A program made the position numbers and the translations under genes. Under the pieces are notes generated by a model, which worked only from the letters and a program-made list of their open reading frames with translations, was not told the DNA's origin and did no database searches. From Methanogenium sp. MK-MG (GTDB taxonomy: Archaea; Halobacteriota; Methanomicrobia; Methanomicrobiales; Methanomicrobiaceae): 32,240 nt of DNA. Shown one piece after another: positions 12,075 to 30,117 of this stretch (within the stretch, counting starts at the first letter, position 1; the number at the start of each line of letters is the position of its first letter). The DNA lies in NCBI RefSeq assembly GCF_009914725.1, contig NZ_JAAAWJ010000020.1, positions 1-32,240 on the forward strand, written 5' to 3'.

Positions 12075-12086
12075 TTTTTTAAAAAA
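12075..12086 (+). terminator. Oligo-T terminator candidate after gdhA
   Basis: TTTTTTAAAAAA about 20 nt after the stop codon. Confidence 0.35.
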
Positions 12087-14167: not shown

Positions 14168-14363
14168 GTGAGATCTTCAGACATACGGGAACATAATCAT
14201 ACAACCCAATGATCGCCTGTTACCGGGCGATCATTGGCAATGCTGAACGGTTTCGTTTCCCCCCTCACTATTTTTTCCATTTCCTGATTTAATGAAACGA
14301 AAAGAAAAATCCCGTTTTATTGTCTTCATTACGCAAATATCCATTCCATCAACATAATACGAA

Positions 14364-14377
14364 GGAAGGAAATTTCC
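14364..14377. promoter_or_regulatory. GGAA-N6-TTCC palindrome (NrpR-type nitrogen operator consensus) in the promoter region of the glutamate synthase operon
   Basis: Sequence GGAAGGAAATTTCC lies about 130 bp upstream of the GATase start, in a 330-bp AT-rich intergenic region. Coordinates approximate. An 8-specified-base motif could occur by chance about 0.5 times in 32 kb. Confidence 0.3.
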
Positions 14378-14502
14378 ATCGATCATATGATAAAGCTATG
14401 GTATTATTTAGGATCGATCACATACAGTAGAGAGCAACCAAATCCCGGTCGGAAAAAGTTTAAATCAGATCCCACAGATCTCTAAAAAAATATGTGATAA
14501 CA

Positions 14503-17066: not shown

Positions 17067-17812
17067 TGGAAAAGACCCGGACAATCGATGCAAAAGGCAT
17101 GCACTACACCCCCCTCAACAAGGAGATACGTGCAGCAGTAAAGGATGGTATAACAGAAATAATTCTTGATCATATCAATGGCCAGCGGTTTATCGGAGAC
17201 GGCCTCCGTGGCGAGGATGTACGCATCATCATCAATGGCGTGCCCGGCGGTGACCTCTGCATGTTTATGTCAGGCCCGACCTGTATTGTGCATGCAAACG
17301 CCGAACACGCTCCCGGAAACACCATGGACAGCGGTACAATTTACATCCACGGAACCGCAGGCGATGCGGTTGCCCATTCCATGCGTGGCGGAGAGGTGTA
17401 TGTGCGTGACAGCATCGGATACCGTGGCGGCATCCACATGAAGGAGTATAAGGATAAATGTCCGGTCGTTGTCGTAGGCGAATATGCCCGGGCATTTCTG
17501 GGAGAGTATATGGCCGGAGGTATTATCATTGTCCTTGGACGTGGGAAGCAGCCCCCTGTTGATGAACGGGGAGTGGGAACAGGCATCCACGGGGGGGAAC
17601 TCTACATACGGGGAGAGGTGCCCGACCACCTCCTGGGCATCGGTGCAGAGAAAAAACCCTTTACGGAAGCTGACCGACAAAAAATCCGGCCGTATATTGA
17701 AAAATACTGTAGGGAGTTTGGTGTGGATGAGCCGGAACTGTTCAGTGATGAGTATGTACATATCGGGCCTTCCAGTGCCCGGCCGTTTGCAGGAAAATAT
17801 TGCTGGGAGTGA
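17063..17812 (+). CDS. Archaeal glutamate synthase GXGXG-motif (GltB C-terminal beta-helix) subunit
   Basis: Repeated G-x-G motifs (IHGTAGDAVAHSMRGGEVYVRDSIGYRGG...GEYMAGGIIIVLG) typical of the GltS alpha-subunit C-terminal domain and FwdC-like fold. Its ATG overlaps the stop of the FMN subunit. Confidence 0.85.
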   Translation: MMEKTRTIDAKGMHYTPLNKEIRAAVKDGITEIILDHINGQRFIGDGLRGEDVRIIINGVPGGDLCMFMSGPTCIVHANAEHAPGNTMDSGTIYIHGTAGDAVAHSMRGGEVYVRDSIGYRGGIHMKEYKDKCPVVVVGEYARAFLGEYMAGGIIIVLGRGKQPPVDERGVGTGIHGGELYIRGEVPDHLLGIGAEKKPFTEADRQKIRPYIEKYCREFGVDEPELFSDEYVHIGPSSARPFAGKYCWE

Positions 17813-17820
17813 GAAATAAA

Positions 17821-18858
17821 ATGCCAGAGAAAAATTATGAGAACCTGAAAGAAGAGGTCTGGGACACAGGCATCTGTTCAGGGTGTGGTGCCTGCGTTGC
17901 TGTCTGCCCGGCAGACGCCATCATATTCACCCATGATGAAAACGGAGACTCCCCCGTCCAGACAGGTTATTGCAAGGAAGTAACAGACAGTGTGCCATGC
18001 GGGGCGTGTTACGCCGTCTGCCCGCGAACCGCGACGCAAGATAAATTCCGGGTGGAAAAGACCGGTCTGGGCGAATACAGAGATATCTTTGCTGCCCACG
18101 CGGGATTTGCGGTAGAGAAACGACAGAGCGGTGGCGCAGTAACGGCAATTCTGGTAAACGCCCTTGAGGAAGGACTCATTGATGCAGTAGTAACCGTGAC
18201 CGCAGACCCGTGGACACAGAGACCGCAGTCAGTTGTGATCACACAGACGGAGGCATTGGTCGCAACGGCAGGCAGCAGATATGCCTGGTGGGTGCCCACT
18301 CTGGCAGCGCTGAAATCCGCGGTGATTACACAGAAGATGGAACATATCGCCATCGTCGGCGTTCCCTGTGCCGTCTCTGCAGCGCGGATGATGAAGACGT
18401 CAGACCATGACCTGCTCAGACCTTTCGGCAGAGCCATTCGCCTGATCGTCGGGCTCTTCTGTACGGAAACATTCGACTATGAGATGCTCATCAGGGATAA
18501 AATAATGCGTGAGCTGGCAATTGAGCCCTGGCAGATATCAACACTGGATGTGCGGGGTAAACTGATCATCGAATGCACAGACAATACAGTCAGAGAAATA
18601 CCCCTGCCTGACCTTGAAGACTGCGTGCGAAGAGGATGCCAGGCATGCGGGGATTTGACCGCAGTTGATGCTGACATATCTGCAGGTTCAGTCGGAAGCC
18701 CGGACGGCGAAACGACCCTCATCGTCAGGACTCCTGCAGGAGTTGGATTTATTGATCATGCACTACAGACCGAAAGACTGATCATTGAAACAGATGCATG
18801 CAGTCTTGATGGCATCATACATCTGTCACAGAAAAAATCAGAACGAATCCACAAATAA
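17821..18858 (+). CDS. Coenzyme F420 hydrogenase/dehydrogenase beta-subunit family protein (FrhB/FpoF-like) with N-terminal 4Fe-4S ferredoxin motif; probable F420H2 input module for glutamate synthase
   Basis: The ORF-track start (TTG, 17800) overlaps the upstream gene. The ATG at 17821 (MPEKNY...), 9 nt after the upstream stop with GGAGTGA about 8 nt ahead, is the likelier start. Motifs CSGCGACVAVCP and CGACYAVCP, then the FrhB N- and C-domains (IFAAHAGFAVEKRQSGGAVTAIL...VGVPCAVSAARMM...GLFCTETF). Confidence 0.8.
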   Translation: MPEKNYENLKEEVWDTGICSGCGACVAVCPADAIIFTHDENGDSPVQTGYCKEVTDSVPCGACYAVCPRTATQDKFRVEKTGLGEYRDIFAAHAGFAVEKRQSGGAVTAILVNALEEGLIDAVVTVTADPWTQRPQSVVITQTEALVATAGSRYAWWVPTLAALKSAVITQKMEHIAIVGVPCAVSAARMMKTSDHDLLRPFGRAIRLIVGLFCTETFDYEMLIRDKIMRELAIEPWQISTLDVRGKLIIECTDNTVREIPLPDLEDCVRRGCQACGDLTAVDADISAGSVGSPDGETTLIVRTPAGVGFIDHALQTERLIIETDACSLDGIIHLSQKKSERIHK

Positions 18859-18968
18859 TCTGTTTTGTATGAGAATCCAAATTAAGAAATACATATTTTT
18901 CCGGACGATGAAATTATACAGTATCATACTATGGATTACCCCGTATCAACCAGAGGTCTGACGATACT

Positions 18969-19715
18969 ATGGAACAACTAAAATTTGTCAATCATCGCAT
19001 CGATGAATATGCCCTTCAGGTAACATACGATCCGGCAACCGACAGCGGCAAAGTGATCTTTAATCTCACCCTGATTAAAGAGGAAGACCGCAGTTATGCG
19101 GTTGATATCATTCACCAGTCCCATAAAGCGGGCATCTGCGTCAGTGACCGTATGCTCATCGCTGACGCGGGTGAACAGATTGGGGAGAGGACAATACCAA
19201 AGGGATACTGCGGCATTGTAACGATGTGCAGCATCACCCTCGATGCAATACTGCTGAGAAACGGCATTCCGATCAATCCCATTGGCGGAGGTCTGCTGGA
19301 GATCAAAGATCACGTGCCCCGCAGGTTTACCTCTCTGATACGCTACGATGCAACAACCATCGATCCGACGCAGGTGATGATCGACCATGGCTCCACCGGC
19401 ATCAGCGGAGTTATTCAGTTTGGGAAAGGCAGCATCCTTGCAAATATACGGGAATCACATATGGAGGCAGAACCGCTCCTCTTTGAAATTCTGGACCTGT
19501 TTGGAACGGTGGGCTTTACCGGCATTCTGGACGTGGGTAGTCCAAACAGATCCATGTTTGGCGTCCCCGTCACAACGAACTATCAGGGCATTGTGATGAT
19601 CGGTGGAGCAAATCCGGTGGCGGCATTTATCGAATCGGGAAGGTGGGCGGAGACGACCGCGATGAAGGGGCTGATTCCGGTGTCAAGGCTGGTTCACATC
19701 GACGATATTGAGTAG
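18969..19715 (+). CDS. Conserved hypothetical protein (248 aa), encoded immediately downstream of the glutamate synthase genes
   Basis: No motif recognised with certainty. Soluble, Gly-rich core (NPIGGGLLEI, HGSTGISGVIQFGKGS). From genomic context only, an NrpR-type regulatory domain (DUF128) or a GOGAT accessory role are possibilities. Confidence 0.4.
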   Translation: MEQLKFVNHRIDEYALQVTYDPATDSGKVIFNLTLIKEEDRSYAVDIIHQSHKAGICVSDRMLIADAGEQIGERTIPKGYCGIVTMCSITLDAILLRNGIPINPIGGGLLEIKDHVPRRFTSLIRYDATTIDPTQVMIDHGSTGISGVIQFGKGSILANIRESHMEAEPLLFEILDLFGTVGFTGILDVGSPNRSMFGVPVTTNYQGIVMIGGANPVAAFIESGRWAETTAMKGLIPVSRLVHIDDIE

Positions 19716-19872: not shown

Positions 19873-21957
19873 TTATTTGATAATATATTCATTCTGCCAC
19901 ATATCAATCATTGATGACCACAACCGTTCAACCCGCTCATAGGTTTCTTCGCCATCCTCAAGCATCTCAACAGCACGGATATTTTTGCTTAACATTGTAT
20001 GGACGCGTTCGGGTGCAGACGCCTTATCAAAAAGGTCATCCAACGCCCGCATCTTATCCAGAAGCAGATCATATTTCCGCTGACTACAGCACTGATCGAT
20101 ATCACGGATATGGGTGAATGCATGCAGGAGAACACGCGTCGTATTGGGATCAAAGGATCGTTTCAGAACATTTTCAGTCAGGCTTTCCGCATTTTCCGGA
20201 TTTGTTGTCAGGGCTGTCTTATAGTTCTGCACATCACAGGCAAAGGTAAACTGTTTCTCTGGAATTTCAATGGATTCAAAACCCTCAGCAACAAATCGCC
20301 CGGCAATTCTTAGATCAGTATTGCAGGCCTTTGAATAGATTTTGATGTAGAGTCTCAGTGAACCATCACGCGGAATGACAACACCGTCATGACGGGAAAA
20401 ACCAAAGTGGAATGACTTCACCCAGGGTTTTTCTATATCGATAGAATCATCCACGCTCACATAGGTGTCCCTGTTTTCAATAACGATCTCAGAAATCCCC
20501 GCAGCCTTACCCATCTCAAGGGAAATCCCCCATTCGTCAACGGGCTTGTCCAGACAGTTTTTGAGGCAAATAACATACCAGTACGAGGAAGGATCATGGG
20601 TCAGGATCCACTGCTGCACATTCGGTAAATTGCGCTTCGAGGAGAGGAGGAAACCGGTCGTTACCGGATCGAAGATTGTGCGTACTATAAGGAGAGATTC
20701 ATCCATATTGGAATGAAGAACCTTTCTTTCATCGGGGGAAGATCTTTCTGATGAAAACCCACGGGATATTTTTTCAGAAATCTCAGCCTTTAATTGTTGA
20801 GCCCTGCTATTGTCTGGATCCAATTCAAGTGTTTTTGCACAGCAGGTTTGAGCCTCTTCGTATCGTTGCAGACTAAAAAGGATCTTTCCTTTATTATACC
20901 ATAGATCCACTTCATCAGGATCAAGCTTGATAGCCTGATAATATGCATCAAGCGCCTCATCAAATTCATCTAGACTAAAAAAGGCATCTCCTTTATGCTT
21001 CCAGAAACGTGAGTCAGTAGGATCAAGATCAATCGCATGGCAATAAGCATCAAGTGCATCATCATATCGCTGCAAAAAACACATGAAGAAATTTCCTTTC
21101 GTATCCCATCGATCAGCATTATTTGGATCAAGAGTGATCATATGATCATAAGCATCAAGTAACTCATCATATCGCTCTAATTCTAACAGAGCAAGTCCCT
21201 TGTGAGCCCATATATCCACGTCATTAGGATCCAATTTAATCGCCAGGTCATATGTTTCGAGCCCCTCATCATATCGACCCAATTCACATAGAGTAGAGCC
21301 CTTGTTAGCCCATGTATTCATTTCATTAGGATCAAGAACGATCGCATGGTTATAGGCATCAAGTGCCTCATCGTATCTACCTAGAGTCTGCAGGGCAAAT
21401 CCTCTGTTAGCCCATAGATTCGCATCATTAGGATCAAAATCAATTGCACATTGATAGGCATCAAGCGCTTTATCAAATTGTTCTAAATCATAATAGACAT
21501 GTCCTCTGCAAATCCATTTCTCCGCATCATCAGGATCAATCTCAATTGCCTGAGTATATGCTTCAAGTGCCTCATCATATCGTTGAAGCTCAGACAGTGC
21601 AATTCCAATATTTTGCCATGCAGTTGCATTATCGGGATCAATCTCTGTGGCCTGATCATATGCTTCGAGGGCCTCTTCATATAGTTCCAGTCCAGTCAGA
21701 GCATTTCCTCTGCAAATCCATTTCTCCGCATCTTCAGGATCGAGCTCAATCGCCTGATCATATGCTTCGAGGGCTTCTTCATATAGTTCCAGTCCAGTCA
21801 GAGCATTTCCTCTGCAAATCCATTTCTCCGCATCTTCAGGATCGAGCTCAATCGCCTGATTAAATGCTTCAAGTGCCTCATCATATCGTTGAAGCTCATA
21901 CAGATCATCACCTTTGCCAATCCACTTTTTTGCTTTTATTGCCCCTAAAAATCCCAT
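19873..21957 (-). CDS. TPR-repeat protein (about 11 N-terminal TPR units) with about 310-aa C-terminal domain of unknown function; last gene of the Vps4-like operon
   Basis: N-terminal half is built of 34-aa units (ELYEEALEAYDQAIELDPEDAEKWICRGNALTGL and variants); two units are 100% identical. The C-terminal 310 aa are non-repetitive with no recognised domain. The ATG overlaps the stop of the upstream AAA ATPase (TAATG). Confidence 0.8.
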   Translation of the reverse strand: MGFLGAIKAKKWIGKGDDLYELQRYDEALEAFNQAIELDPEDAEKWICRGNALTGLELYEEALEAYDQAIELDPEDAEKWICRGNALTGLELYEEALEAYDQATEIDPDNATAWQNIGIALSELQRYDEALEAYTQAIEIDPDDAEKWICRGHVYYDLEQFDKALDAYQCAIDFDPNDANLWANRGFALQTLGRYDEALDAYNHAIVLDPNEMNTWANKGSTLCELGRYDEGLETYDLAIKLDPNDVDIWAHKGLALLELERYDELLDAYDHMITLDPNNADRWDTKGNFFMCFLQRYDDALDAYCHAIDLDPTDSRFWKHKGDAFFSLDEFDEALDAYYQAIKLDPDEVDLWYNKGKILFSLQRYEEAQTCCAKTLELDPDNSRAQQLKAEISEKISRGFSSERSSPDERKVLHSNMDESLLIVRTIFDPVTTGFLLSSKRNLPNVQQWILTHDPSSYWYVICLKNCLDKPVDEWGISLEMGKAAGISEIVIENRDTYVSVDDSIDIEKPWVKSFHFGFSRHDGVVIPRDGSLRLYIKIYSKACNTDLRIAGRFVAEGFESIEIPEKQFTFACDVQNYKTALTTNPENAESLTENVLKRSFDPNTTRVLLHAFTHIRDIDQCCSQRKYDLLLDKMRALDDLFDKASAPERVHTMLSKNIRAVEMLEDGEETYERVERLWSSMIDMWQNEYIIK
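21658..21861. repeat. Two near-perfect tandem copies of a 102-bp unit (one TPR repeat) inside the TPR gene; further diverged copies extend about 21490-21900
   Basis: Unit ATATGCTTCGAGGGC(C/T)TCTTCATATAGTTCCAGTCCAGTCAGAGCATTTCCTCTGCAAATCCATTTCTCCGCATCTTCAGGATCGAGCTCAATCGCCTGATC is repeated head-to-tail with a single mismatch. Confidence 0.8.
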
Positions 21958-23192
21958 TAAAATCCAGCCTCTCCATATTCATTATTCCAATTCATATAAC
22001 GCTCAAGATCCTCTTTTCGCACCGGTGACCGTATCTTCTCAAATGCCTCGTCAAAATCAGTGGCACAGAGATCTCTTGTCAAAAGCACCCGCTCTTTGAG
22101 TTCATCAAACGGAAGGTCTGCAAGCTCATCCATACGGGGATTCTCCTCATGAATCATCGTCCATATCGCCTGCTGGCAGAGATTCTGAACGTCTCTGCCC
22201 GAATACAACTGTTCCACACAACATTCTGCAAGGGCAGCAGCATCAAGCTGAACAGTTCCAAGACCTACCGTATGGAGCCGGATGATAGCCTCACACGACA
22301 CAGCATCCGGAAGCGTCACATAAATCCGCCGGGGGAACCGTGAGAGAACCGCCGGGTCAAGATCCCATGGCGTGTTTGTCGCTGCCATGGTGAGAAGAAG
22401 CCGATCGGCCTTTTTATCCTGCAGGCCATCCATCTCTGTAAGAAGTGAGGAGAGAAGTTTCCGCGTAGCTTCACTCGTGCCCTCTCCTCTGGCAGAACCC
22501 AGAGCATCAAACTCGTCGATAAAAACAATGGACGGAGCCTCACTTCGGGCAGAGTCATAGAGCGAGGCAACCAGTTTTGATGACTCTCCAAAATACTTTG
22601 AGAGGACACGGTCAGCCTTCACATCATAGAACGTGGCATGCAGGCTTCCTGCCGCTGCGGCAGCAATCATCGTCTTTCCCGTTCCGGGCGGGCCAAAAAG
22701 AAGAATTCCTTTCCATGGCCGGATGGCGTCCGGTTTTTTCAGACCAGAAATCACTACGGTCTCTTTTACCAGACGTTTCACTTCATCCAGACCACCAATA
22801 TCATCCCACCGGACGGATGAGGACGATATCAGGGACGATGCATCAAAGGAACCATCCGTTTCATCCGGAGACACACGATTTTCTGGATTTTGCCTAGGTT
22901 TTACGCCGGGTTTCTGTCCGGATGTCTGTCGGGAATTGTGTGCTGATGAACTCCCCCTTTTTTCTGCTGAAACAGGTATTTCTCCCGATGCAATGGCACC
23001 CCACCTCTCTGCATCAGAGAGATATTTTTTCCGCAAAGAAGGCATCTGCTCAGCAAGCTGACGGCTCAGAACAGCACAGGCATGCGCTTTTTCACGAACA
23101 GTTGCATTGTCATTTTTCCCTCTTGCTGTCTGAAACTCCTGTATCGTTTTTTTCAGTTCTGTTGCAAGAAATCCACTGAGATCCACGGTCAT
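21957..23192 (-). CDS. Vps4/katanin/spastin-clade ('meiotic clade') AAA+ ATPase with MIT-like N-terminal helical domain and Vps4-type C-terminal helix
   Basis: Walker A GPPGTGKT and Walker B IVFIDEFDAL. The second region of homology ATNTPWDLDPAVLSRFPRRIYVTLP matches Vps4 [25 protein letters not shown]. The C-terminal DLERYMNWNNEYGEAGF matches the Vps4 C-terminal helix motif (DL.KY..W...FG.EG). An about 75-aa alpha-helical N-terminus is followed by a Ser/Pro/basic linker, as in MIT-linker-AAA proteins. GTGATGAT Shine-Dalgarno. Confidence 0.85.
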   Translation of the reverse strand: MTVDLSGFLATELKKTIQEFQTARGKNDNATVREKAHACAVLSRQLAEQMPSLRKKYLSDAERWGAIASGEIPVSAEKRGSSSAHNSRQTSGQKPGVKPRQNPENRVSPDETDGSFDASSLISSSSVRWDDIGGLDEVKRLVKETVVISGLKKPDAIRPWKGILLFGPPGTGKTMIAAAAAGSLHATFYDVKADRVLSKYFGESSKLVASLYDSARSEAPSIVFIDEFDALGSARGEGTSEATRKLLSSLLTEMDGLQDKKADRLLLTMAATNTPWDLDPAVLSRFPRRIYVTLPDAVSCEAIIRLHTVGLGTVQLDAAALAECCVEQLYSGRDVQNLCQQAIWTMIHEENPRMDELADLPFDELKERVLLTRDLCATDFDEAFEKIRSPVRKEDLERYMNWNNEYGEAGF

Positions 23193-23200
23193 ATCATCAC

Positions 23201-25072
23201 TTATTCCATTGTTTTGACAAGGATCATTTCCTTCGATATTTCTGCCATATTCTCAAATTCCTCTGGAATTCCCTCAATTTCCTGCTTGAGATAATATTCA
23301 AGAATGCCCCTCTGTTTCTGCACATCAGACAGAATTGACCCTGAGACCAAATGTTCCAGATGAACAACCGATTTACAAGCATTTTGGAGCTCATTCCGGT
23401 GTAACTCATCTACATACCCTTTTGCGATAAAATACGCCGTCTGATAATCACTTTTTGACGACTGTGTGGGAACGGGACGTGATGAATCAAATTTTTTCAG
23501 AACATCACCAGCGATACCACCAATGGAGCGTTGTTTCCAATTTTTCTCATTGTGATAAAAGACATGGACTTTGTGCTGATCGTTGTAGCAGGTTTTCAGC
23601 AGATCTTTTGCTCCATTCCGGGTGAATGTCTTAGAAAGACCTGCATCAACCCACCTTCCGATAGCCCAGACTGAAGCCCCCCGTACACGATTTCTTTTGG
23701 AACCAATACCAGTAATGAGAATCCGTTCCAAATCCTTGTTCTCAAGAAAAGATTTGTCAGTAACTGTTGAAAGTTCACCAATGATTGAAATTGCTGCCTT
23801 GCGAATTTCAGGGTTTCTGCTTTGAGCACATAGCTTAAGATCGGTAATCAGCATATCAATTTCGCACAGGCTGTTCGAATATCCACGGCTTGCTACAGAC
23901 CAAAGGGCCCACAGATTTTTTTCCCGAACAGAAGTTTCTCCATCCATGATATGACGGGCAAGTGCCACAATCCCGTTTTCGCGGACAAGTGGTTCGGGGC
24001 TTGCATAGAAGGAGACTTTATCCAGAGCAAAAGCGGCCATTTCACGAACTTCTGCATTAGGATCATCTAACAGTCTGATGCAGGGACTAACCATACCTGT
24101 CTCAGCTACATGTATACCCTGCCCGGACTCTGCAAGAACTGCCAGCGACCATGCTGCCGCACTTCGTACATCCTCCGACGGGTCATGAAGACAATCAACA
24201 AGACGGCATAATATTTCTGATTCAGCCACCTCATGTGAGTAGCTATTGCAGGCAAGGTTTCCAAGAGCCCACAAAATATTCTGTCGCACATCTGGAACCG
24301 GATCCTGCAGTGAGCGTTCAAACAGTGAAAACGGTCTTTGTCTGATAATCTGGCCTGCAAGATTATTTTTCACACAACGATCCAACGAATCTGATGCATC
24401 TGCCCGTTCCTGATTTGTTCCTGTTGAAAGGAGATGCATAAAATGTGCAATATCAACCTGATCTGGAGCGACATAAATCCGGCAATTCAGTTTTTTGTGG
24501 TTTAAAGAATCCTGAATTTCAGTCGAATCCAAATGTGTAAGCGAAAGGGCCTTATCATACCTTTTAAGGGCGTCATTGTACGAGCCACGATCAGAGAAGA
24601 TGTCCCCTTCCAGAATATCAGGGAATACAAAAGACGGACGCATTTGTATCACTTCTTCGGCCAAGCGGAACGCCTGGTCTTTCTTACCAGTTTCGTACAG
24701 GCAGTGTGCTTTTCCGTTGAGAGCCCAGGGATGCCTTTTTATCTTAATTGCCCGGTTATATTCAGTAAGGGCCTTTGGAATTAATTTTTGTTTGAAAAAA
24801 ATGTCACCTTTCCCAATATGGGGAAAAGGGTAGGAAGATTTGTCAAGAAAAATGGCATGATCATAACACTTTATTGCCTCCTCATATCGGCCAAGCCTCC
24901 GGAGTGAACTCCCCTTCCAATTCCATGCTACATACGATTGTGGATCAAATGTTATTGCTTTTTCAAAGAATTTTAATGCATCACGATATTGCCCGGATTT
25001 GTATTGTGAATGGCCCTTGTCCATATTGTTTTGATATTTTGAATGAGTATCCGTCTTCTTAAAAAACATCAC
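23201..25072 (-). CDS. TPR + HEAT (PBS-lyase type) repeat protein
   Basis: N-terminal TPR units (YRDALKFFEKAITFDPQSYVAWNWKGSSLRRLGRYEEAIKCYDHAIFLD...). Central HEAT-like repeats follow with recurring D/NPxxxVRxxAxxALG pattern (PDVRQNILWALGNL, PSEDVRSAAAWSLAVL, PNAEVREMAAFALDKV, TSVREKNLWALWSV, NPEIRKAAISIIGEL, RNRVRGASVWAIGRW). Its stop lies 8 nt before the AAA ATPase start. Confidence 0.75.
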   Translation of the reverse strand: MMFFKKTDTHSKYQNNMDKGHSQYKSGQYRDALKFFEKAITFDPQSYVAWNWKGSSLRRLGRYEEAIKCYDHAIFLDKSSYPFPHIGKGDIFFKQKLIPKALTEYNRAIKIKRHPWALNGKAHCLYETGKKDQAFRLAEEVIQMRPSFVFPDILEGDIFSDRGSYNDALKRYDKALSLTHLDSTEIQDSLNHKKLNCRIYVAPDQVDIAHFMHLLSTGTNQERADASDSLDRCVKNNLAGQIIRQRPFSLFERSLQDPVPDVRQNILWALGNLACNSYSHEVAESEILCRLVDCLHDPSEDVRSAAAWSLAVLAESGQGIHVAETGMVSPCIRLLDDPNAEVREMAAFALDKVSFYASPEPLVRENGIVALARHIMDGETSVREKNLWALWSVASRGYSNSLCEIDMLITDLKLCAQSRNPEIRKAAISIIGELSTVTDKSFLENKDLERILITGIGSKRNRVRGASVWAIGRWVDAGLSKTFTRNGAKDLLKTCYNDQHKVHVFYHNEKNWKQRSIGGIAGDVLKKFDSSRPVPTQSSKSDYQTAYFIAKGYVDELHRNELQNACKSVVHLEHLVSGSILSDVQKQRGILEYYLKQEIEGIPEEFENMAEISKEMILVKTME

Positions 25073-25587
25073 ACACCCCCCAGAAACACCTTAAGTTCCT
25101 CATCAATCCGTCCTGCCACAAACGAAACCACATCACCAAAACCACTTACATAGATTGTTACCTTCGTCTTACCTGAATCTTTTCCCCATACCAGGCCAAT
25201 TTCTGCCTGACCTTTCCGGGTATATGCAGTATAGGATTCCACGCCATCACGGGTGCCCTCGATACTGGCATTTATTTTATTCAGGATGTATCGCAAAAAC
25301 TGCCGGACTGTTTCGCACTCCATCCCTGTTTCATACTGCAGTGTTTGTGAAATCTCCTCTACTTCCGGAGCACATTCTTCTGCAGTGTACATACGCACAC
25401 TCTCGGTGCCCCTGTCCAGTCGTGCATAGAGATCATGCAAAAAATCTTCAATACCATCATCACTGACCCGGATGACAACACCTTTCTCTTTGCGCACGTC
25501 TTTTTTGCTTTTCCAGCGGTCAATGGTGGCATCAATCCGTTTGCGTTCGGCATCAGAGTGATAATCCACAACAAGGAGATATTCCAT
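25069..25587 (-). CDS. Hypothetical protein (172 aa), first gene of the TPR/HEAT-Vps4-like operon
   Basis: ATGA start/stop overlap with the downstream TPR/HEAT gene. A TATA-like element sits about 30 bp upstream, suggesting a leaderless transcript. No recognised domain. A superficial Cas2-like N-terminus (LLVVDY..D..RR) was not supported further. Confidence 0.45.
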   Translation of the reverse strand: MEYLLVVDYHSDAERKRIDATIDRWKSKKDVRKEKGVVIRVSDDGIEDFLHDLYARLDRGTESVRMYTAEECAPEVEEISQTLQYETGMECETVRQFLRYILNKINASIEGTRDGVESYTAYTRKGQAEIGLVWGKDSGKTKVTIYVSGFGDVVSFVAGRIDEELKVFLGGV

Positions 25588-25612
25588 TCCTGTTGAATCT
25601 GTATGAACTCTG

Positions 25613-25700
25613 CCCTATAAAATATTGCCTCCATGACGGAGTATCGCAAAATGCCCCCAAACAATATCCTCCATTTTGGAGGTACCTTTATTATGGATCA
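25613..25700. promoter_or_regulatory. Divergent promoter region with two TGGAGG-N4-TATA elements (one per direction), repeated AATAT-N1-2-CCTCCAT motif and a CCTCCA-TTT-TGGAGG palindrome
   Basis: Minus-strand reading gives ATGGAGGCAATATTTTATAGG about 30 bp before the operon ATG. Plus-strand reading gives CCTCCATTTTGGAGGTACCTTTATTATGG about 35-50 bp before the Snf7-like gene ATG. Coordinates approximate. Confidence 0.4.
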
Positions 25701-25727
25701 GAGATTATAATCGATCAGTGAAGTAAG

Positions 25728-26330
25728 ATGGGAATTATAGACCGATTTCGAAGAAACCCAATTGGAAAATTAAAAATCTCTGAACTGCAGGAAGAAGAAT
25801 TCAAGCTGAAAAGCCGTATCAATCGACTTCGCAAAGAAATTGACCGGATTGAACGCGACAAAAAGGAAAAATTTGGAGAAGGTGTTGGAGCGGATCTCAT
25901 TAAAAAGAAGATGCTGGCACAGGAACTCAAGCAGATGGACATGGCGGCCAAACTCAAAATTCGCAACTTTATATCATTGCACAAGCAGTATATGTTCATC
26001 TCGAATCTTGTAGTGATCAAGAAATATCAGCGTGACCTCCAGAAGACACAGGTTTGGGAAAAGATTCAGGGAATTTCACCTGATGCTTTTGAAAGTTCAC
26101 TTATTCAGGTAAACCTTGCAGGCAAAGGATTCGAAAACGTTGTTGATGACCTGAACCAGATCTTCACGCTGGACATTGCAGATTCAGACAATGATCTTGA
26201 TGAATCCGAAAAGCAGATGTTTGAAATCTGGAGCAGTGTTGAGACAGGATCTCTTGACCTTGAAGAAGCAGGCGGACTCTTCTCCGTAGAAAAGGACCTT
26301 GAGAAGGCCATTGCAGAATCTGATAATTAA
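25728..26330 (+). CDS. ESCRT-III/Snf7-like protein (PspA/ESCRT-III superfamily), paralog 1
   Basis: 200 aa, predicted all-helical. Basic N-terminal half, acidic C-terminal half. MGIIDRFRRNP start. ADLIKKKMLAQELKQMD corresponds to the Snf7-family ALKRKKRYEKQLAQID helix. KKYQRDLQKTQVWEKIQGISPDAFESSL corresponds to AKAMKAAHDNMDIDKVDELMQDI. The acidic tail DIADSDNDLDESE corresponds to EEFDEDELMAELEE. Comparison is from memory of CHMP4/Snf7 and PspA sequences. Confidence 0.55.
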   Translation: MGIIDRFRRNPIGKLKISELQEEEFKLKSRINRLRKEIDRIERDKKEKFGEGVGADLIKKKMLAQELKQMDMAAKLKIRNFISLHKQYMFISNLVVIKKYQRDLQKTQVWEKIQGISPDAFESSLIQVNLAGKGFENVVDDLNQIFTLDIADSDNDLDESEKQMFEIWSSVETGSLDLEEAGGLFSVEKDLEKAIAESDN

Positions 26331-26348
26331 TTACAGGAGTGTCCGACA

Positions 26349-26951
26349 ATGAGTATCTTTTCCAGACTCCATGCAAGAAATCCTTTAGATTCGATGAAAC
26401 TGGGGGATCTAAGGAAGGCAGAAGCACAATTACGATATCAGATTCAGACTACCCTGAATGACAGATCAGCGATGGAGGAGCAGATTACTCTACTCTTTTC
26501 CGAGTCTCTGGCTATCGCTGATGATGTGGGAACAGCCATCTGTGCCATGCGGATACAGGCAATTTCAGAATCCTGGCAGTTAAAAGCCCAGACCTGTCTG
26601 AACCTTGAGCGGGATTTACAGGTGCTTTCGAATATGATTGCAATTAAAGAACAGGAGAAAACTCTTCAGCGCTCCGGTGTCTGGAAAAAGCTACAGAACA
26701 TTGACCCGGATACCCTGGAAGAATGGTTGGCAAAATCAAGTATCAGTACTGCAGGTCAAAGGGCCTTGGTAAACGAACTTTCTGAGATTACTTCTGAACA
26801 TATTTCGCAGTCCGGAACAGGTTCAGTTGATGAATCATACATCAGGTCTCTGATTTCTGAGATGCGGACGGGGAGTCTGTCTTCAGATTCTGCAGGTACA
26901 AAATTGTTCAGCAATTTGTCCTCAGAACAACTGGATGGATCATCCCATTGA
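26349..26951 (+). CDS. ESCRT-III/Snf7-like protein (PspA/ESCRT-III superfamily), diverged paralog 2
   Basis: Same length (200 aa) and organisation as the upstream gene. Shared blocks VWEKIQGISPDAFE/VWKKLQNIDPDTLEE, TGSLDLEEAGGLFS/TGSLSSDSAGTKLFS. N-terminus MSIFSRLHA resembles PspA/Vipp1 MGIFSRF. Starts 19 nt after paralog 1 with a GGAG Shine-Dalgarno. Confidence 0.45.
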   Translation: MSIFSRLHARNPLDSMKLGDLRKAEAQLRYQIQTTLNDRSAMEEQITLLFSESLAIADDVGTAICAMRIQAISESWQLKAQTCLNLERDLQVLSNMIAIKEQEKTLQRSGVWKKLQNIDPDTLEEWLAKSSISTAGQRALVNELSEITSEHISQSGTGSVDESYIRSLISEMRTGSLSSDSAGTKLFSNLSSEQLDGSSH

Positions 26952-27210: not shown

Positions 27211-29124
27211 ATGGGTTTTTTTGGTAAGAAAAGTGACAATGACATCCCGGCAAACAGGTCTGCCGAAGGATACAGAAGAGAGAAAACATGCCCGAAGTGT
27301 GGAACAACCCTTGAAGAAGATGTTAAATTCTGTCCTCACTGTGGAGCAAAAGTTGCGGACTTTACCTGCAACAAATGTGGAGCTTCTGTTCCAGCGGATG
27401 CAAAGTTCTGTCCCGGGTGTGGGTATGATGCACGGACATCCCGGCTTGGTAAACTGGTAGGGTCAAATCAGGAAGATTTCTCACGGAACCGTGAGTGGAT
27501 ACGAAAACCAGAGGATTTTGCCAGCCGGTTCGAAATTGAGGACCTACGCGGCATTCTCAAAAAAACGGTTACTGTTGCCGAAGGAACCCGTGCTCTGCTC
27601 TTCCAGGGCGGGGCATTTGTAGGTGATCTCAGACCCGGACATTATAATATTGGAAAATTTCTTGAGACTCATCTGCCACTGAACCTTGATGACCGTGCAT
27701 CCGTTGTGCTTGTTGACGATGGTATTATTGCCATTGATTTCTCCCTTAACAGGACACAGGTCCGCACTGCTGATTCAATCCCGGTCGGCATCAGTGGCAC
27801 GCTGACGCTCAGAAACACTGACTCAAAGAAATTCATCGACAATCTCCTGAAAGGAAAGAGCCGGATTCTTCTGAGTGATCTTCAGAATGATCTCACCTAT
27901 GACATTCAAAGCGTGGTTCATGCAACGCTAAGCAGGTACACCATGGATGAACTCTATGGGAATCTCTCAGTCAAGCAGGAGATTGAGCAGCAGGTTCAGA
28001 CACATGTTGCTCCGACACTGAACACTTACGGCTTTTCCGTAGAGCACCTCAGGTTTGTCCGGTGTGATGAAACAGACTGGAAAGACATCATTGAGAAACG
28101 TGGCACACGGACGAAAAAAGTCGCCGGGGCGGAGCTTGATATCGACACCGAGCAAAAAATCAGGCAACTCCTCTCAAATGACAGAATCAATAAACTTTCA
28201 ACCGAAGACACCGTTGAAGCCTATGTTCACGAGCTTGCAAAGGTTGGAATAATCCGCACCAATGATATCCAGGACCTGAAAATAGAACTTAACAATAACC
28301 GGGACGACAAGGAATACATCCGCTCTCTCGTCAGGGATAAGGCCCGGCAGATGCACCGCCATGAAACTGCTGATGCAGAGCTTGATCATACTTTGAGTCA
28401 GGATGATCGACAGCAGGCTCACGAAATAAAAACTGACGATGCACAAAGAGAGCACGGAGAAAAGTGGGCAGAACGTGAACATGCCCGTGATGTCAAAGAG
28501 ATGGAGAGTCTCATCGGCATCAAAAAGCAGATGAGTGAGGCAAAACTTCAGAAGCAGACCGGCGAGCAGGGACTCCAGCACAGAGACCTGGAAAAAGAGG
28601 CTGAGATTGAAGGGATTAAGCTCTCACAACGTACCAATGCGTCAGCTGAAGCACTCCTCACCATGACAGAGGGAAAGACGGCTGAACACCTGACTGAACT
28701 GGAGAAGATGAAACGTGCAGCTGTTTTGGATGCAGATCAGATTGTTGCACTCTACGCAAAAGACCCGGTTGCCGCTGCTGAGGCAATGAAACAGAAGTTT
28801 GGTTCAGCTGAAATGGAAAAAATGCACGCGGCCCGCCTTGGAGATCAGCAGGCATTCATGGAGATGATGCAGAAGAATTTCGGTGAGAATTCTGATCGTA
28901 TGGTCGATGTGATGAATCAGGCCCTTGGTGCAATGGGCAGCACGGCAACAGCACGAGGCAGTGCCCATCAGGCACAGGGTTCAACTGTCGTTGCCGGTGG
29001 AGGTATTGGCCAGCCGGTTATCGTGAACCCGGTGCAAAATGAAAATACACGGGCATGTCCTGAATGTGGAGCTGAGAACAACGCATCGGCAGGATTTTGC
29101 AAGGAATGCGGCCAGAAACTTTGA
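27211..29124 (+). CDS. Zinc-ribbon / SPFH (band-7, flotillin-like) / coiled-coil / zinc-ribbon protein
   Basis: N-terminal double zinc ribbon (CPKCGTTLEEDVKFCPHCG; CNKCGASVPADAKFCPGCG). SPFH-like core (VTVAEGTRALLFQGGAFVGDLRPGHYNI...VVLVDDGIIAIDFSLNRTQVRTADSIPVGISGTLTLRNTD...). Long E/K/Q/A-rich helical region as in flotillins/YqiK. C-terminal zinc ribbon CPECGAENNASAGFCKECG. Confidence 0.55.
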   Translation: MGFFGKKSDNDIPANRSAEGYRREKTCPKCGTTLEEDVKFCPHCGAKVADFTCNKCGASVPADAKFCPGCGYDARTSRLGKLVGSNQEDFSRNREWIRKPEDFASRFEIEDLRGILKKTVTVAEGTRALLFQGGAFVGDLRPGHYNIGKFLETHLPLNLDDRASVVLVDDGIIAIDFSLNRTQVRTADSIPVGISGTLTLRNTDSKKFIDNLLKGKSRILLSDLQNDLTYDIQSVVHATLSRYTMDELYGNLSVKQEIEQQVQTHVAPTLNTYGFSVEHLRFVRCDETDWKDIIEKRGTRTKKVAGAELDIDTEQKIRQLLSNDRINKLSTEDTVEAYVHELAKVGIIRTNDIQDLKIELNNNRDDKEYIRSLVRDKARQMHRHETADAELDHTLSQDDRQQAHEIKTDDAQREHGEKWAEREHARDVKEMESLIGIKKQMSEAKLQKQTGEQGLQHRDLEKEAEIEGIKLSQRTNASAEALLTMTEGKTAEHLTELEKMKRAAVLDADQIVALYAKDPVAAAEAMKQKFGSAEMEKMHAARLGDQQAFMEMMQKNFGENSDRMVDVMNQALGAMGSTATARGSAHQAQGSTVVAGGGIGQPVIVNPVQNENTRACPECGAENNASAGFCKECGQKL

Positions 29125-29208: not shown

Positions 29209-30117
29209 ATGTTTGGAGATGGAGACCTTACCTGTATTGAAAATCTGCTGAAACCGGCAGAGATCATCATTGACAGTGGCACCGGAATTTCAAGAAGATC
29301 GTATGAGGAAAGAGTCAGACTCTGGAATGAAGTTCGCAGTAACTATTCACGGTTTGAAAACCGTGAGTGTGGATCTTTTGACAAAACGCTTGACCTGCAC
29401 TTCCGTTCAAAGTTTGAGGCATCCCTTCTCACTCTTGCAACAAGTTTTCGCAGAAACAGAGAAGATCCTGTTGAAGCCAACACCTTCACTGAAGACGAAC
29501 TGTTGCTGTATGAACTCATTGAACGGTATCACGTTCTCCCTTCAAAGAAGGAACTGATGACCGTTCTTCTCTCAGGTGAAGGGAAAGGATCTGAATTTTT
29601 GAATGTGCACTACCGCTACATCGATGGTATGATACTAGATGCCTGCAAACGGCCCGGTGCTGCCAATCCATATCTTCTCCATTTTCTGAAGAGCAGATGG
29701 AACAAATATGACAAACGCCTGCAGGATGTTGTAACAAGTGCCATCGAAAATAACGGTCTCCGATGGTTTGTCACATTTATCGGGGATGGAAACAAGCGTG
29801 CAGAGCAGATAGTCTACAACATATCCGGAGGTTCAGTGAATCTTGGCAACGGTGTGCAGGTTGTTGACAGTATCCTGAGTCGTGCCGGGATTACCAATGA
29901 AAATGCCAGTGATTCAATTTTCCCGAGTGAAAGGAAAGGTTCACCGGGTGGCGTACAGGTGCAGGACAGTGTGGTAAACAGGTCGACATTTGGAGATACT
30001 GGCAATGGAGATGCCCGGACAAAGAGTTCCGAAAGATTTTGTGCGGCATGTGGAACCAGGTTACCTGATGGTGCACAGTTTTGCACTGATTGTGGTAACC
30101 GCGTGGAATTCGAATGA
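29209..30117 (+). CDS. Hypothetical protein with C-terminal zinc-ribbon (CAACGTRLPDGAQFCTDCGNRV)
   Basis: 302 aa. No recognised N-terminal domain. The C-terminal C-x2-CG-x7-FC-x2-CG ribbon is the same type as in the upstream SPFH protein. Confidence 0.45.
   Translation: MFGDGDLTCIENLLKPAEIIIDSGTGISRRSYEERVRLWNEVRSNYSRFENRECGSFDKTLDLHFRSKFEASLLTLATSFRRNREDPVEANTFTEDELLLYELIERYHVLPSKKELMTVLLSGEGKGSEFLNVHYRYIDGMILDACKRPGAANPYLLHFLKSRWNKYDKRLQDVVTSAIENNGLRWFVTFIGDGNKRAEQIVYNISGGSVNLGNGVQVVDSILSRAGITNENASDSIFPSERKGSPGGVQVQDSVVNRSTFGDTGNGDARTKSSERFCAACGTRLPDGAQFCTDCGNRVEFE

What the first reader, a model, noticed from the sequence alone, without database searches (positions are those of the whole stretch)
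25728..26951. Two tandem ESCRT-III/Snf7-like paralogs (PspA/ESCRT-III superfamily)
Both are 200 aa and all-helical. N-termini are MG(I/S)I..RF-like and basic, C-termini acidic. Paralog 1 has the lysine-rich helix ADLIKKKMLAQELKQMD resembling the Snf7-family ALKRKKRYEKQLAQID helix, and a downstream block matching the Snf7 alpha3-alpha4 region. ESCRT-III systems characteristically use several paralogs, and two paralogs next to a Vps4-like ATPase fit a minimal ESCRT-III machine. The N-termini also resemble PspA (MGIFSRF), so assignment within the superfamily (Snf7 versus PspA/Vipp1) is open.
Basis: partly seen in the sequence, partly recalled or inferred. Interest (0 to 1): 0.75.

Follow-up and report, generated by a model that had tools for sequence, protein, structure and literature searches.

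The report
Two tandem archaeal ESCRT-III (Snf7-like) genes

Summary
Both ORFs are real: 25728-26330 and 26349-26951, + strand, 200 aa each. The window is a Methanogenium sp. MK-MG contig. The two proteins are paralogs (28% identity, E 1e-22) and about 79% helical in AlphaFold2 models, with a long alpha1/alpha2-3 hairpin followed by short helices. Neither hits Pfam Snf7 or PspA directly.

The wider family (213 representatives at 50% identity) links to bona fide Snf7/CHMP proteins by profile-profile comparison: probability 83%, E 9e-6, 137 colinear columns. Reversed and shuffled controls score far lower, and PspA/Vipp1 scores at background. The best natural PDB sequence hit is CdvB.

The Methanoplanus limicola ortholog of paralog 1 (66% identity) is listed as arCOG09747 "Snf7 family protein" in Makarova et al. 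2024 (mBio). Its neighbour, the paralog 2 type, is listed as arCOG09749 with the same name. Both are components of that paper's "Main" euryarchaeal ESCRT clade.

Synteny is conserved across Methanomicrobiales: Vps4-like ATPase, a large adaptor and arCOG08177 on one strand, the two Snf7 paralogs on the other. A zinc-ribbon SPFH protein often follows.

Verdict: interpretation supported and resolved towards Snf7 rather than PspA. This is a new member of a known kind. Function is still untested experimentally.

The parts
25728..26330 (+). Paralog 1: ESCRT-III (Snf7-like) protein of the arCOG09747 type, 200 aa. It has a basic hairpin core and an acidic C-terminal part.
   Evidence: ORF. It is 66% identical to M. 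limicola WP_004077840, which is listed as arCOG09747 'Snf7 family protein'. AF2 gives a hairpin, H17-52 and H57-105, plus short helices. The subfamily profile against Snf7 gives probability 60.7%, score 35.4, 154 columns. Net charge is +13 for residues 1-110 and -18 for 111-200.
26349..26951 (+). Paralog 2: fast-evolving ESCRT-III-like protein of the arCOG09749 type, 200 aa. Its hairpin is not basic in this genome.
   Evidence: ORF. It is a paralog of the first gene, E 1e-22. It is 29% identical (E 2e-21) to the gene downstream of WP_004077840 in M. limicola. That gene is P0193, which scores par2-like (81.9 vs 38.9 bits). Its identity with WP_004077839 (arCOG09749) is inferred from adjacency, not checked by accession. 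AF2 pLDDT is 79.5, with H18-53 and H59-109. The top Foldseek hit is the Asgard ESCRT-IIIB filament, E 0.053. The subfamily profile against Snf7 is weak: 13.8%, score 27.9, against controls of at most 17.7.
25588..25727 (.). 140-bp divergent intergenic region between the arCOG08177-like gene (- strand) and paralog 1 (+ strand). It contains A/T-rich TATA-like boxes facing both ways.
   Evidence: Read directly from the sequence: ctataaaatatt at about 25615-25626, and tttattatgg and agattataat at about 25689-25712. Promoter function is inferred, not tested.
25069..25587 (-). arCOG08177-type ESCRT accessory protein. The literature describes an inactivated Cas2-like N-terminal domain and a TBP-fold DUF3568 domain.
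   Evidence: It is 44% identical (E 1e-53) to the M. limicola gene in the same position. I take that gene to be WP_048145794 (arCOG08177) from its position and length; its accession was not looked up. The N-terminal motif YLLVVDYHSDAERKRID matches the published arCOG08177 alignment. There is no Pfam hit.
23201..25072 (-). 623-aa TPR + HEAT/ARM repeat protein. It occupies the slot that holds arCOG09748 in other Main-clade loci, and its end overlaps the upstream gene by 4 nt.
   Evidence: Pfam TPR_1 4e-26 and HEAT 8e-26. BLASTP finds no similarity to M. limicola arCOG09748. It is conserved at 48-76% identity over its full length in L003, L004, L005 and L008; L006 has a partial match of 34% over 373 aa running to the locus end.
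21957..23192 (-). Vps4-like single-domain AAA+ ATPase, 411 aa, with a helical N-terminal domain of about 70 aa.
   Evidence: Pfam AAA 8e-37 and Vps4_C 29.5 bits (cut-off 21.3). NCBIfam CdvC 175 bits, below its cut-off of 650. It is 51% identical to the M. limicola gene in the same position, taken from position and domain content to be WP_004077847, listed as Vps4 in the 'Main' clade. The MIT test was inconclusive.
27211..29124 (+). 637-aa protein with two N-terminal zinc ribbons, an SPFH/Band-7 domain, a long charged helical region and a C-terminal zinc ribbon.
   Evidence: Pfam Zn_Ribbon_1 1e-19, DZR and Band_7 6.5e-12. It is present downstream of the two paralogs in 7 of 10 related loci: L003-L006, L008, L009 and L011.
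29209..30117 (+). 302-aa protein. Its N-terminal domain is homologous to the N-terminal helical domain of arCOG09748, and it carries a C-terminal zinc ribbon.
   Evidence: It is 30% identical over 176 aa (E 7e-23) to the N-terminus of the M. limicola 528-aa protein, taken to be WP_004077845 (arCOG09748). Pfam Zn_Ribbon_1 at residues 277-298.
19873..21957 (-). 694-aa TPR protein. Its start overlaps the stop of the ATPase gene by 1 nt, so it is probably the last gene of the minus-strand operon. Membership of the system is uncertain.
   Evidence: Pfam TPR_1 4e-91. Relatives occur near the locus in L003, L004 and L008, but in variable positions.

Best explanation
The two genes encode the two ESCRT-III (Snf7-branch) subunits of the 'Main-clade' euryarchaeal ESCRT system: an arCOG09747-type and an arCOG09749-type protein. 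They are transcribed as a pair, divergently from an operon that encodes an arCOG08177 adaptor, a TPR/HEAT scaffold and a Vps4-like AAA+ ATPase. The proposed mechanism is inferred from what is established for ESCRT-III in eukaryotes and Sulfolobales. Paralog 1 opens from an autoinhibited state in which the acidic C-terminal part folds back on the basic hairpin. It binds the cytoplasmic face of the membrane through its hydrophobic-basic N-terminal motif (MGIIDRFRRNP) and its basic alpha1-alpha3 hairpin, and polymerises into curved filaments. Paralog 2 has the same fold but no basic face in this genome and diverges two to three times faster. It most likely co-polymerises on or caps the paralog 1 filament. 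The Vps4-like hexamer then extracts subunits and drives filament remodelling and membrane constriction or scission. The accessory proteins (arCOG08177, TPR/HEAT, the zinc-ribbon SPFH protein, the arCOG09748-N/zinc-ribbon protein) probably choose the membrane site or the cargo. Methanomicrobiales are FtsZ-dividing archaea by established knowledge, which this window does not show. The likely role is therefore vesicle budding, protein sorting or membrane repair rather than cytokinesis. What is shown here: paralogy, fold class, profile-level homology to Snf7, orthology to published arCOGs, and conserved synteny. What is inferred: polymerisation, membrane binding, the division of labour between the paralogs, the interaction with the ATPase, and the cellular role.
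Against: Neither protein hits Pfam Snf7, NCBIfam or any PDB sequence significantly on its own. The narrow Methanomicrobiales-only profile does not reach Snf7 (probability 4%). Paralog 2's subfamily alone gives only 13.8%. Structure searches are not discriminating, because long helical hairpins from SMC, prefoldin and designed bundles score as well and no Foldseek hit reaches E<=0.001. There is no canonical MIM1 or MIM2 in either C-terminus. The ATPase N-terminus does not match MIT profiles: probability 2%, with the reversed control scoring higher. No experiment exists for any member of this clade.
Confidence: 0.82

Rival explanations
1. They belong to the PspA/Vipp1/IM30 branch of the ESCRT-III superfamily. 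That would make them stress-induced membrane-repair proteins that act without a dedicated Vps4, as in bacteria and in archaeal PspA acquired by horizontal transfer.
Against: hhalign against validated PspA and Vipp1 is at background: probability 0.3-0.9%, score 14-18, short non-colinear segments. Snf7 gives 83% and score 40.9. There is no Pfam PspA_IM30 hit at E<=1. The genes sit in conserved synteny with a Vps4_C-bearing ATPase, which defines the archaeal ESCRT-III branch.
Confidence: 0.06
2. They are generic coiled-coil or helical-hairpin proteins unrelated to ESCRT-III. Examples would be SMC-like 'chromosome assembly' factors, as NCBI names paralog 1, or CdvA/steadiness-box-like adaptors. 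On this reading the Snf7 signal is compositional.
Against: The hhalign match to Snf7 is colinear over 137 columns and far above the reversed and column-shuffled templates, which keep composition. The only natural PDB sequence hit is CdvB. A 200-aa protein has no SMC head or hinge. Charge asymmetry, the N-terminal motif and linkage to a Vps4-type ATPase are all specific to ESCRT-III.
Confidence: 0.07
3. The cluster is an anti-virus defence or stress module, in which the AAA+ ATPase with TPR/HEAT sensors acts as an effector and the two helical proteins are membrane-disrupting effectors rather than remodelling machinery.
For: The ATPase matches the PADLOC IetA models (best E 2.6e-33) and TRIP13 models and NCBIfam IteA. 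TPR and HEAT proteins are frequent in defence loci. Neighbours are variable downstream, for example a NERD-UvrD-Cas4 nuclease in M. limicola.
Against: The PADLOC and IteA matches cover only the generic AAA core and fall far below the NCBIfam cut-off (113 vs 510 bits). Neither paralog nor arCOG08177, the SPFH protein or the zinc-ribbon protein hits any PADLOC model. The core is vertically conserved across an order, with up to 99% identity for paralog 1, which is unlike mobile defence islands.
Confidence: 0.05

Closest known systems
arCOG09747 and arCOG09749 'Snf7 family proteins' of the 'Main' euryarchaeal ESCRT clade (Makarova et al. 2024, mBio, PMC10936438). Examples: Methanoplanus limicola WP_004077840/WP_004077839; Thermococcus gammatolerans WP_048811155/WP_015858599.
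   Same: Both are tandem pairs of roughly 200-aa helical proteins. Paralog 1 is 66% identical to WP_004077840. Paralog 2 is 29% identical (E 2e-21) to the M. limicola downstream gene and scores with that subfamily. The partners match: a Vps4 of arCOG01307 (51% identity) and arCOG08177 (44% identity).
   Different: In this genome and its closest relatives the arCOG09748 winged-helix protein is missing from its usual slot, which holds a TPR+HEAT protein instead. The arCOG09748 N-domain is found on a separate zinc-ribbon protein. A zinc-ribbon SPFH protein follows the pair; the paper's main text mentions SPFH only for the Meth_adaptin clade. No serine/threonine kinase or phosphatase is seen in the window.
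Eukaryotic Snf7/CHMP4 and other CHMPs (Pfam PF03357)
   Same: The helix order alpha0-alpha5 is shared, as are a hydrophobic-basic N-terminal motif, a lysine-rich alpha2, an 'MDIDKVDELM'-like alpha4 block, a basic core with an acidic tail, and a partnership with a Vps4-type ATPase.
   Different: Sequence identity is about 15%. There is no direct Pfam hit, no MIM1 or MIM2 motif, and a conserved C-terminal W-x2-VE-x-G...EAE...S-[IV]-E-K motif stands in their place. No ESCRT-0/I/II or ubiquitin parts are present.
Crenarchaeal CdvB/CdvB1/CdvB2 with CdvC (Sulfolobus cell-division ESCRT-III)
   Same: CdvB (9s9j) is the best natural PDB sequence hit (E 0.009). CdvB and CdvB2 are among the fold hits. 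Several paralogs work with one Vps4-like ATPase.
   Different: There is no CdvA, no C-terminal winged helix on the ESCRT-III protein and no proline-rich MIM2. The host lineage is FtsZ-based (established knowledge), so a role in division is unlikely.
Bacterial PspA/Vipp1 with the SPFH partner YdjI
   Same: Both belong to the same superfamily fold, have similar N-terminal amphipathic motifs, and have an SPFH-domain gene as neighbour.
   Different: Profile comparison is at background level. The ESCRT-III genes here are coupled to a Vps4-like ATPase, which PspA systems lack.

Membership tests
Euryarchaeal Main-clade ESCRT-III (arCOG09747 / arCOG09749) | Orthology to listed members of the two arCOGs | tested here: met
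   Paralog 1 is 66% identical to P0099 = WP_004077840 (arCOG09747). Paralog 2 matches the M. limicola downstream gene (P0193) at E 2e-21, and both score as the par2 subfamily. Equating that gene with WP_004077839 (arCOG09749) rests on adjacency, not on an accession look-up.
Euryarchaeal Main-clade ESCRT-III (arCOG09747 / arCOG09749) | Gene neighbourhood with Vps4 (arCOG01307), arCOG08177 and arCOG09748 | tested here: inconclusive
   Vps4 and arCOG08177 are present and syntenic. Full-length arCOG09748 is absent from its slot: a TPR/HEAT protein sits there, and only the arCOG09748 N-domain is found, on the 302-aa zinc-ribbon protein.
ESCRT-III / Snf7 (Pfam PF03357) | Direct match to the Pfam Snf7 model at its gathering score | tested here: not met
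   Neither paralog hits Snf7 at E<=1. Only 3 of 114 family members reach E<=0.01, best 2.5e-4. This is a limit on the model's reach, not a structural criterion.
ESCRT-III / Snf7 (Pfam PF03357) | Profile-level homology, colinear over the alpha0-alpha4 core, above composition-matched controls | tested here: met
   hhalign gives probability 83%, E 9e-6, score 40.9 over 137 columns. The reversed template scores 24.3 and shuffles score at most 16. Support is moderate, not decisive. For paralog 2's subfamily alone it is only 13.8%.
ESCRT-III / Snf7 (Pfam PF03357) | Fold: a long alpha1/alpha2-3 hairpin followed by shorter alpha4-alpha6 helices | tested here: met
   AF2 gives H17-52 and H57-105 plus four short helices for paralog 1, and H18-53 and H59-109 plus short helices for paralog 2. 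Fold searches agree but are not specific.
ESCRT-III / Snf7 (Pfam PF03357) | Basic membrane-binding core and acidic autoinhibitory C-terminal part | tested here: inconclusive
   Met for paralog 1 (+13 / -18) and for most members of both subfamilies. Not met for this genome's paralog 2 (-1 / -6).
ESCRT-III / Snf7 (Pfam PF03357) | C-terminal MIM1 or MIM2 motif that binds the Vps4 MIT domain | tested here: not met
   No strict or relaxed MIM1, no proline-rich MIM2, and only two prolines per protein, both far from the C-terminus. Only a half-MIM1-like EKDLEKAI at residues 188-195 of paralog 1.
ESCRT-III / Snf7 (Pfam PF03357) | Polymerisation on membranes and Vps4-driven disassembly | not testable with these tools
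   This needs purified proteins with liposomes and EM, or in vivo imaging.
PspA / Vipp1 / IM30 (Pfam PF04012) | Sequence or profile match to PspA_IM30 | tested here: not met
   No Pfam hit. hhalign against validated PspA and Vipp1 gives probability 0.3-0.9%, score 14-18.
Vps4 / CdvC ATPase (the neighbour at 21957-23192) | Single AAA+ domain with a C-terminal Vps4_C helix | tested here: met
   AAA 127 bits. Vps4_C 29.5 bits, against a cut-off of 21.3. It is 51% identical to the M. limicola gene in the same position, taken to be the Vps4 listed in PMC10936438.
Vps4 / CdvC ATPase (the neighbour at 21957-23192) | N-terminal MIT domain | tested here: inconclusive
   No Pfam MIT hit at E<=10 for residues 1-120. 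hhalign of ten N-termini against five validated MIT domains gives probability 2%, with the reversed control higher. The region looks like three helices by eye, but no structure model was made.

The most novel reading that the evidence does not exclude
In the Methanogenium/Methanoculleus/Methanocalculus lineage the Main-clade ESCRT system may have been rebuilt into a distinct architecture. A TPR+HEAT scaffold replaces the winged-helix protein arCOG09748. The arCOG09748 N-domain has moved onto a zinc-ribbon protein. A zinc-ribbon SPFH (flotillin-like) protein has become a fixed downstream partner of the two ESCRT-III genes. Paralog 2 has lost its basic membrane face and would act only as a co-polymer or cap. 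Together this would be an archaeal ESCRT-III-flotillin module, analogous to bacterial PspA-YdjI but driven by Vps4.
Probability: 0.3. Interest if true: 0.5.

Novelty: new member of a known kind. Interest (0 to 1): 0.27.

Why it matters
Euryarchaeal ESCRT systems that sit alongside FtsZ have been described by comparative genomics, but I found no experimental study of them. Their function is open: vesicles, protein sorting or membrane repair. This locus adds a clean, compact example from a methanogen. It has two sharply asymmetric ESCRT-III paralogs, one conserved and basic, the other fast-evolving and non-basic. It also has a conserved SPFH neighbour, which makes a good test case for how a two-subunit ESCRT-III machine divides labour. 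The finding also shows that the NCBI name 'chromosome assembly protein' for paralog 1 and its orthologs is probably wrong. As a discovery it is incremental, because the family and its context are already published.

Tried and rejected
- Direct searches gave nothing significant. This covers Pfam, NCBIfam and PDB sequences for each paralog and the Methanomicrobiales-only profile A1 against Snf7 (probability 4%). Only the broad family profile reached Snf7.
- The third word-indexed homolog search, run with the alignment, returned essentially the same close homologs and added little.
With A1 it returned only nine Methanomicrobiales loci, so neighbourhoods in Thermococcales or Methanococcales could not be inspected directly. 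I relied on the paper's Table S2 for those.
- The afdb50 library was unavailable.
- The MIT test on the ATPase N-terminus failed its own control.
- The MIM1/MIM2 regex searches were negative.
- The defence-system reading was checked with PADLOC. Only the generic AAA core matched.
- phmmer of the ATPase against the PDB is dominated by double-AAA Cdc48/p97, because two domains add their scores. It is not informative for Vps4 versus Cdc48.
Full report
**1. Observation.**
They are 18 nt apart, and an AGGAG lies about 11 nt upstream of the second ATG. That spacing fits co-transcription.

Paralog 1 is 100% identical to WP_165076279 of Methanogenium sp. MK-MG, and paralog 2 is WP_165076280. The window is therefore a contig of a methanogen of the order Methanomicrobiales.

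The genes are not chance ORFs. Paralog 1 has 310 homologs at E<=1e-3. An exhaustive profile search finds 213 cluster representatives at 50% identity. The two proteins are paralogs: 28% identity over 190 residues, E 1e-22.

- ADLIKKKMLAQELKQMD lies at residues 55-71 of paralog 1.
- Paralog 1 has a strongly basic N-terminal half (residues 1-110, net +13) and an acidic C-terminal part (residues 111-200, net -18).
- Paralog 2 does not share this asymmetry (-1 and -6). Most members of both subfamilies elsewhere do.

**2. Direct database tests.**
Neither protein matches any Pfam or NCBIfam model at a meaningful level. Neither matches any PDB sequence significantly. The only suggestive hit is S. islandicus CdvB at E 1.7. 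A refutation criterion of 'no significant profile hit' would be met if one stopped here.

**3. Fold.**
AlphaFold2 was run with 24-sequence alignments and gave all-helical models for both proteins.
- Paralog 1: mean pLDDT 71.6, helices 17-52 and 57-105 forming a long hairpin, then helices 109-114, 118-130, 136-147, 157-173, 178-184 and 187-199.
- Paralog 2: mean pLDDT 79.5, the same topology.

This is the ESCRT-III helix order. A long hairpin is not a specific fold, however.
- Foldseek finds no hit at E<=0.001. Most of the top natural hits for both models are nevertheless ESCRT-III superfamily filaments: CHMP1B, Asgard ESCRT-IIIB, CdvB, CHMP2A-CHMP3, Snf7 core and Vipp1. The best is Asgard ESCRT-IIIB for paralog 2, E 0.053.

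I treat the fold evidence as consistent but not decisive.

**4. Profile-level homology.**
I aligned 112 full-length representatives from the exhaustive search with the two window proteins (alignment A2). Three results follow from it.
- Scanning every member against Pfam makes Snf7 the family hit by most members. That is still only 3 of 114, best E 2.5e-4.
- The A2 profile against all PDB sequences returns CdvB (9s9j) as the best and only natural hit. E is 0.009, over the alpha1-alpha2 hairpin.
I then verified them with Pfam: Snf7 at 60-198 bits, PspA_IM30 at 166-242 bits.

hhalign of the family against the Snf7 set gave the following:

| Template | Probability | E-value | Score |
|---|---|---|---|
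| Snf7/CHMP set (137 colinear columns) | 76.7-83% | 2e-5 to 9e-6 | 40-41 |
| Same template, reversed | 4.7-6.7% | 0.005-0.009 | 24 |
| Same template, 30 column shuffles | not recorded | not recorded | at most 14-16 |
| PspA/Vipp1 set | 0.8-0.9% | 0.06-0.07 | 18 |

The alignment pairs four segments:
- the N-terminal DRF-RRN motif with CHMP4B GKLFG;
- alpha1 with alpha1;
- the G-x-G/lysine-rich alpha2 with KNKRAALQALKRKKRYEKQLAQ;
- ISPDAFESSLIQV with MDIDKVDELMQDI.

Split by subfamily, the paralog 1 type alone gives 60.7% (score 35.4, 154 columns). The paralog 2 type alone gives only 13.8% (score 27.9, 133 colinear columns, controls at most 17.7).

The family therefore sits on the Snf7 side of the superfamily, not the PspA side. 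Statistical support is moderate for paralog 1. For paralog 2, support comes mainly through its clear paralogy to paralog 1.

**5. Literature.**
Makarova et al. 2024 (mBio, PMC10936438) describe five euryarchaeal Vps4 clades. The largest, 'Main', covers Thermococcales, Methanococcales, Methanomicrobiales and Halobacteriales. Besides Vps4 and ESCRT-III, it always encodes arCOG09748 (a protein of about 600 aa with a C-terminal winged helix) and arCOG08177 (inactivated Cas2-like domain plus DUF3568/TBP fold).

Their Table S1 lists these Methanoplanus limicola proteins:

| Accession | Assignment |
|---|---|
| WP_004077840 | arCOG09747, 'Snf7 family protein' |
| WP_004077839 | arCOG09749, 'Snf7 family protein' |
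| WP_004077845 | arCOG09748 |
| WP_048145794 | arCOG08177 |
| WP_004077847 | Vps4 |

WP_004077840 is my P0099, which is 66% identical to paralog 1. In Thermococcus gammatolerans the two Snf7 arCOGs are also adjacent tandem genes of about 200 aa. The tandem pair is thus a published hallmark of this system. A 2025 review states that archaeal ESCRT-III homologs characteristically occur with Vps4, and that separate PspA genes entered Methanotecta by horizontal transfer (PMC7619361).

**6. Context in the window and in relatives.**
In M. limicola (L001) the gene order is as follows:
- minus strand: Vps4, a 528-aa protein, a 180-aa protein;
- plus strand: the 203-aa arCOG09747 gene, then a 194-aa gene.

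I equate the 528-aa, 180-aa, 194-aa and Vps4 genes with the Table S1 accessions from position and length. Only P0099 was checked by accession.

The window has the same layout. The window proteins match their M. limicola counterparts as follows:
- ATPase: 51% identity.
- 172-aa protein: 44% identity, E 1e-53.
- Paralog 2: 29% identity to the 194-aa protein, E 2e-21.

HMMs built separately from the two paralog groups split the wider family into a large paralog 1-like set and a smaller paralog 2-like set. The latter includes the M. limicola 194-aa protein.

Across nine further Methanomicrobiales loci the core is conserved, and paralog 2 diverges much faster than paralog 1:

| Locus | Paralog 1 identity | Paralog 2 identity |
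|---|---|---|
| L003 | 98.5% | 90.5% |
| L005 | 88% | 61% |
| L008 | 76% | 39% |
| L001 | 66% | 30% |

In Methanocorpusculum loci the second position holds a helical ORF of 181-183 aa that is too diverged for tblastn.

On the minus strand the 172-aa, 623-aa, 411-aa and 694-aa genes overlap or abut (25069-25072 and 21957), which suggests one operon. The 140-bp divergent intergenic region carries A/T-rich TATA-like boxes in both orientations. Promoter function is inferred.

**7. Departures from the published Main-clade architecture.**
- The protein next to arCOG08177 is a TPR+HEAT repeat protein. BLASTP finds no similarity to M. limicola arCOG09748.
- The N-terminal roughly 175 residues of arCOG09748 match the 302-aa protein at 29209-30117 instead: 30% identity, E 7e-23. 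That protein ends in a zinc ribbon.
- A 637-aa protein with zinc ribbons, an SPFH/Band-7 domain and a long charged helical region follows the two paralogs. This holds here and in 7 of 10 related loci. The paper's main text mentions SPFH only for its Meth_adaptin clade. The stored copy of Table S2 is truncated, so I could not check whether the authors recorded this for Methanomicrobiales.

**8. Tests of the proposed MIT-MIM link.**
- The ATPase has AAA plus Vps4_C, the latter at 29.5 bits against a cut-off of 21.3.
- Its N-terminal 120 residues hit no Pfam model at E<=10.
- hhalign of ten orthologous N-termini against five Pfam-validated MIT domains gives 2% probability, and the reversed control scores higher. 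This test is inconclusive.
- Neither paralog has a MIM1 or MIM2 motif. Each has only two prolines, both far from the C-terminus.
- The paralog 1 subfamily carries a conserved C-terminal W-x2-VE-x-G-x-L...EAE...S-[IV]-E-K-x-[LI]-E-K motif instead. It is a candidate interaction element, untested.

**9. Alternatives.**
- PspA/Vipp1: rejected at the profile level.
- Generic coiled coil or 'chromosome assembly protein' (the NCBI name): unlikely, given the controls, the charge pattern and the Vps4 linkage.
- Defence system: PADLOC matches only the AAA core of the ATPase and nothing else in the cluster.
- The rest of the window is housekeeping: glutamate synthase subunits, NrpR, glutamate dehydrogenase, radical SAM enzymes and a corrinoid adenosyltransferase.

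**10. Verdict.**
The open question is resolved towards Snf7-type ESCRT-III. The proteins are members of arCOG09747 and arCOG09749 of the Main euryarchaeal ESCRT system, which makes this a new member of a known kind.

The mechanism proposed here has three steps:
- membrane-bound co-polymerisation of a basic subunit and a non-basic subunit;
- remodelling by the Vps4-like ATPase;
- targeting by the arCOG08177, TPR/HEAT, SPFH and zinc-ribbon proteins.

The role is more likely vesicle formation, protein sorting or membrane repair than division. All of this is inferred from characterised ESCRT-III systems and has not been tested for any member of this clade.

Noticed in passing
window 29209-30117 (+) and 23201-25072 (-): The 302-aa zinc-ribbon protein carries the N-terminal helical domain of arCOG09748 (30% identity over 176 aa, E 7e-23, to the M. 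limicola 528-aa protein). The usual arCOG09748 slot next to arCOG08177 holds a TPR+HEAT repeat protein with no BLASTP similarity to arCOG09748. This looks like a domain reshuffle of the Main-clade ESCRT accessory proteins.
   Followed up: partly
window 27211-29124 (+); L003-L006, L008, L009, L011: A zinc-ribbon + SPFH/Band-7 + charged-helix + zinc-ribbon protein follows the two ESCRT-III genes in 7 of 10 Methanomicrobiales loci. It is absent in M. limicola and L007. The 2024 paper's main text links SPFH only to its Meth_adaptin clade.
   Followed up: partly
window 26349-26951 (+) compared with 25728-26330 (+): Divergence is strongly asymmetric. Across the same loci paralog 1 stays 65-99% identical while paralog 2 drops to 30-90%. 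This genome's paralog 2 has also lost the basic charge of the hairpin (net -1, against a subfamily median of +5).
   Followed up: partly
window 25728-26330 (+): NCBI and UniRef name paralog 1 and many of its orthologs 'chromosome assembly protein'. Nothing found here supports that name. It is probably a coiled-coil artefact of automatic annotation.
   Followed up: partly
L003 and L004 (contigs CAVXFW010000013.1 and CAVXFW010000002.1): One metagenome-assembled genome (MFD02416.bin.2.146) carries two complete copies of the whole locus on different contigs. Their identity to the window differs (ATPase 87% vs 65%, TPR/HEAT protein 76% vs 61%). The cause is either a duplicated system or a mixed-strain bin.
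   Followed up: no
L009 (JALNXT010000016.1); proteins P0075, P0077, P0029: Loci or proteins about 70% identical to the Methanocorpusculum versions are labelled Cloacimonadota, Paludibacter or Methanomethylophilaceae in their source records. These are most likely binning contaminants rather than horizontal transfer to bacteria.
   Followed up: no
window 21957-23192 (-), residues 1-75 of the protein: The N-terminal helical domain of the Vps4-like ATPase is conserved among orthologs (DLSGFL...KYLSDAE+W) but shows no sequence-detectable MIT signature. It may be a divergent MIT domain or a different three-helix module.
   Followed up: partly
window 25069-25072 and 21957: The minus-strand genes overlap: 4 nt between the 172-aa and 623-aa genes, and 1 nt between the ATPase gene and the 694-aa TPR gene. 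This suggests a translationally coupled four-gene operon.
   Followed up: no
window 6165-7010 (+): This 281-aa ORF combines an RNase H-like domain (RVT_3/RNase_H, residues 12-136) with a TrmO N-terminal domain (residues 179-278), an unusual pairing. It is unrelated to the finding.
   Followed up: no
window 10806-19715: A nitrogen-assimilation neighbourhood lies just upstream of the ESCRT locus: glutamate dehydrogenase, split archaeal glutamate synthase subunits (GATase_2, Glu_synthase, GXGXG), an F420-type FrhB/FdhB-like protein, and the NrpR repressor. This is ordinary housekeeping context.
   Followed up: no
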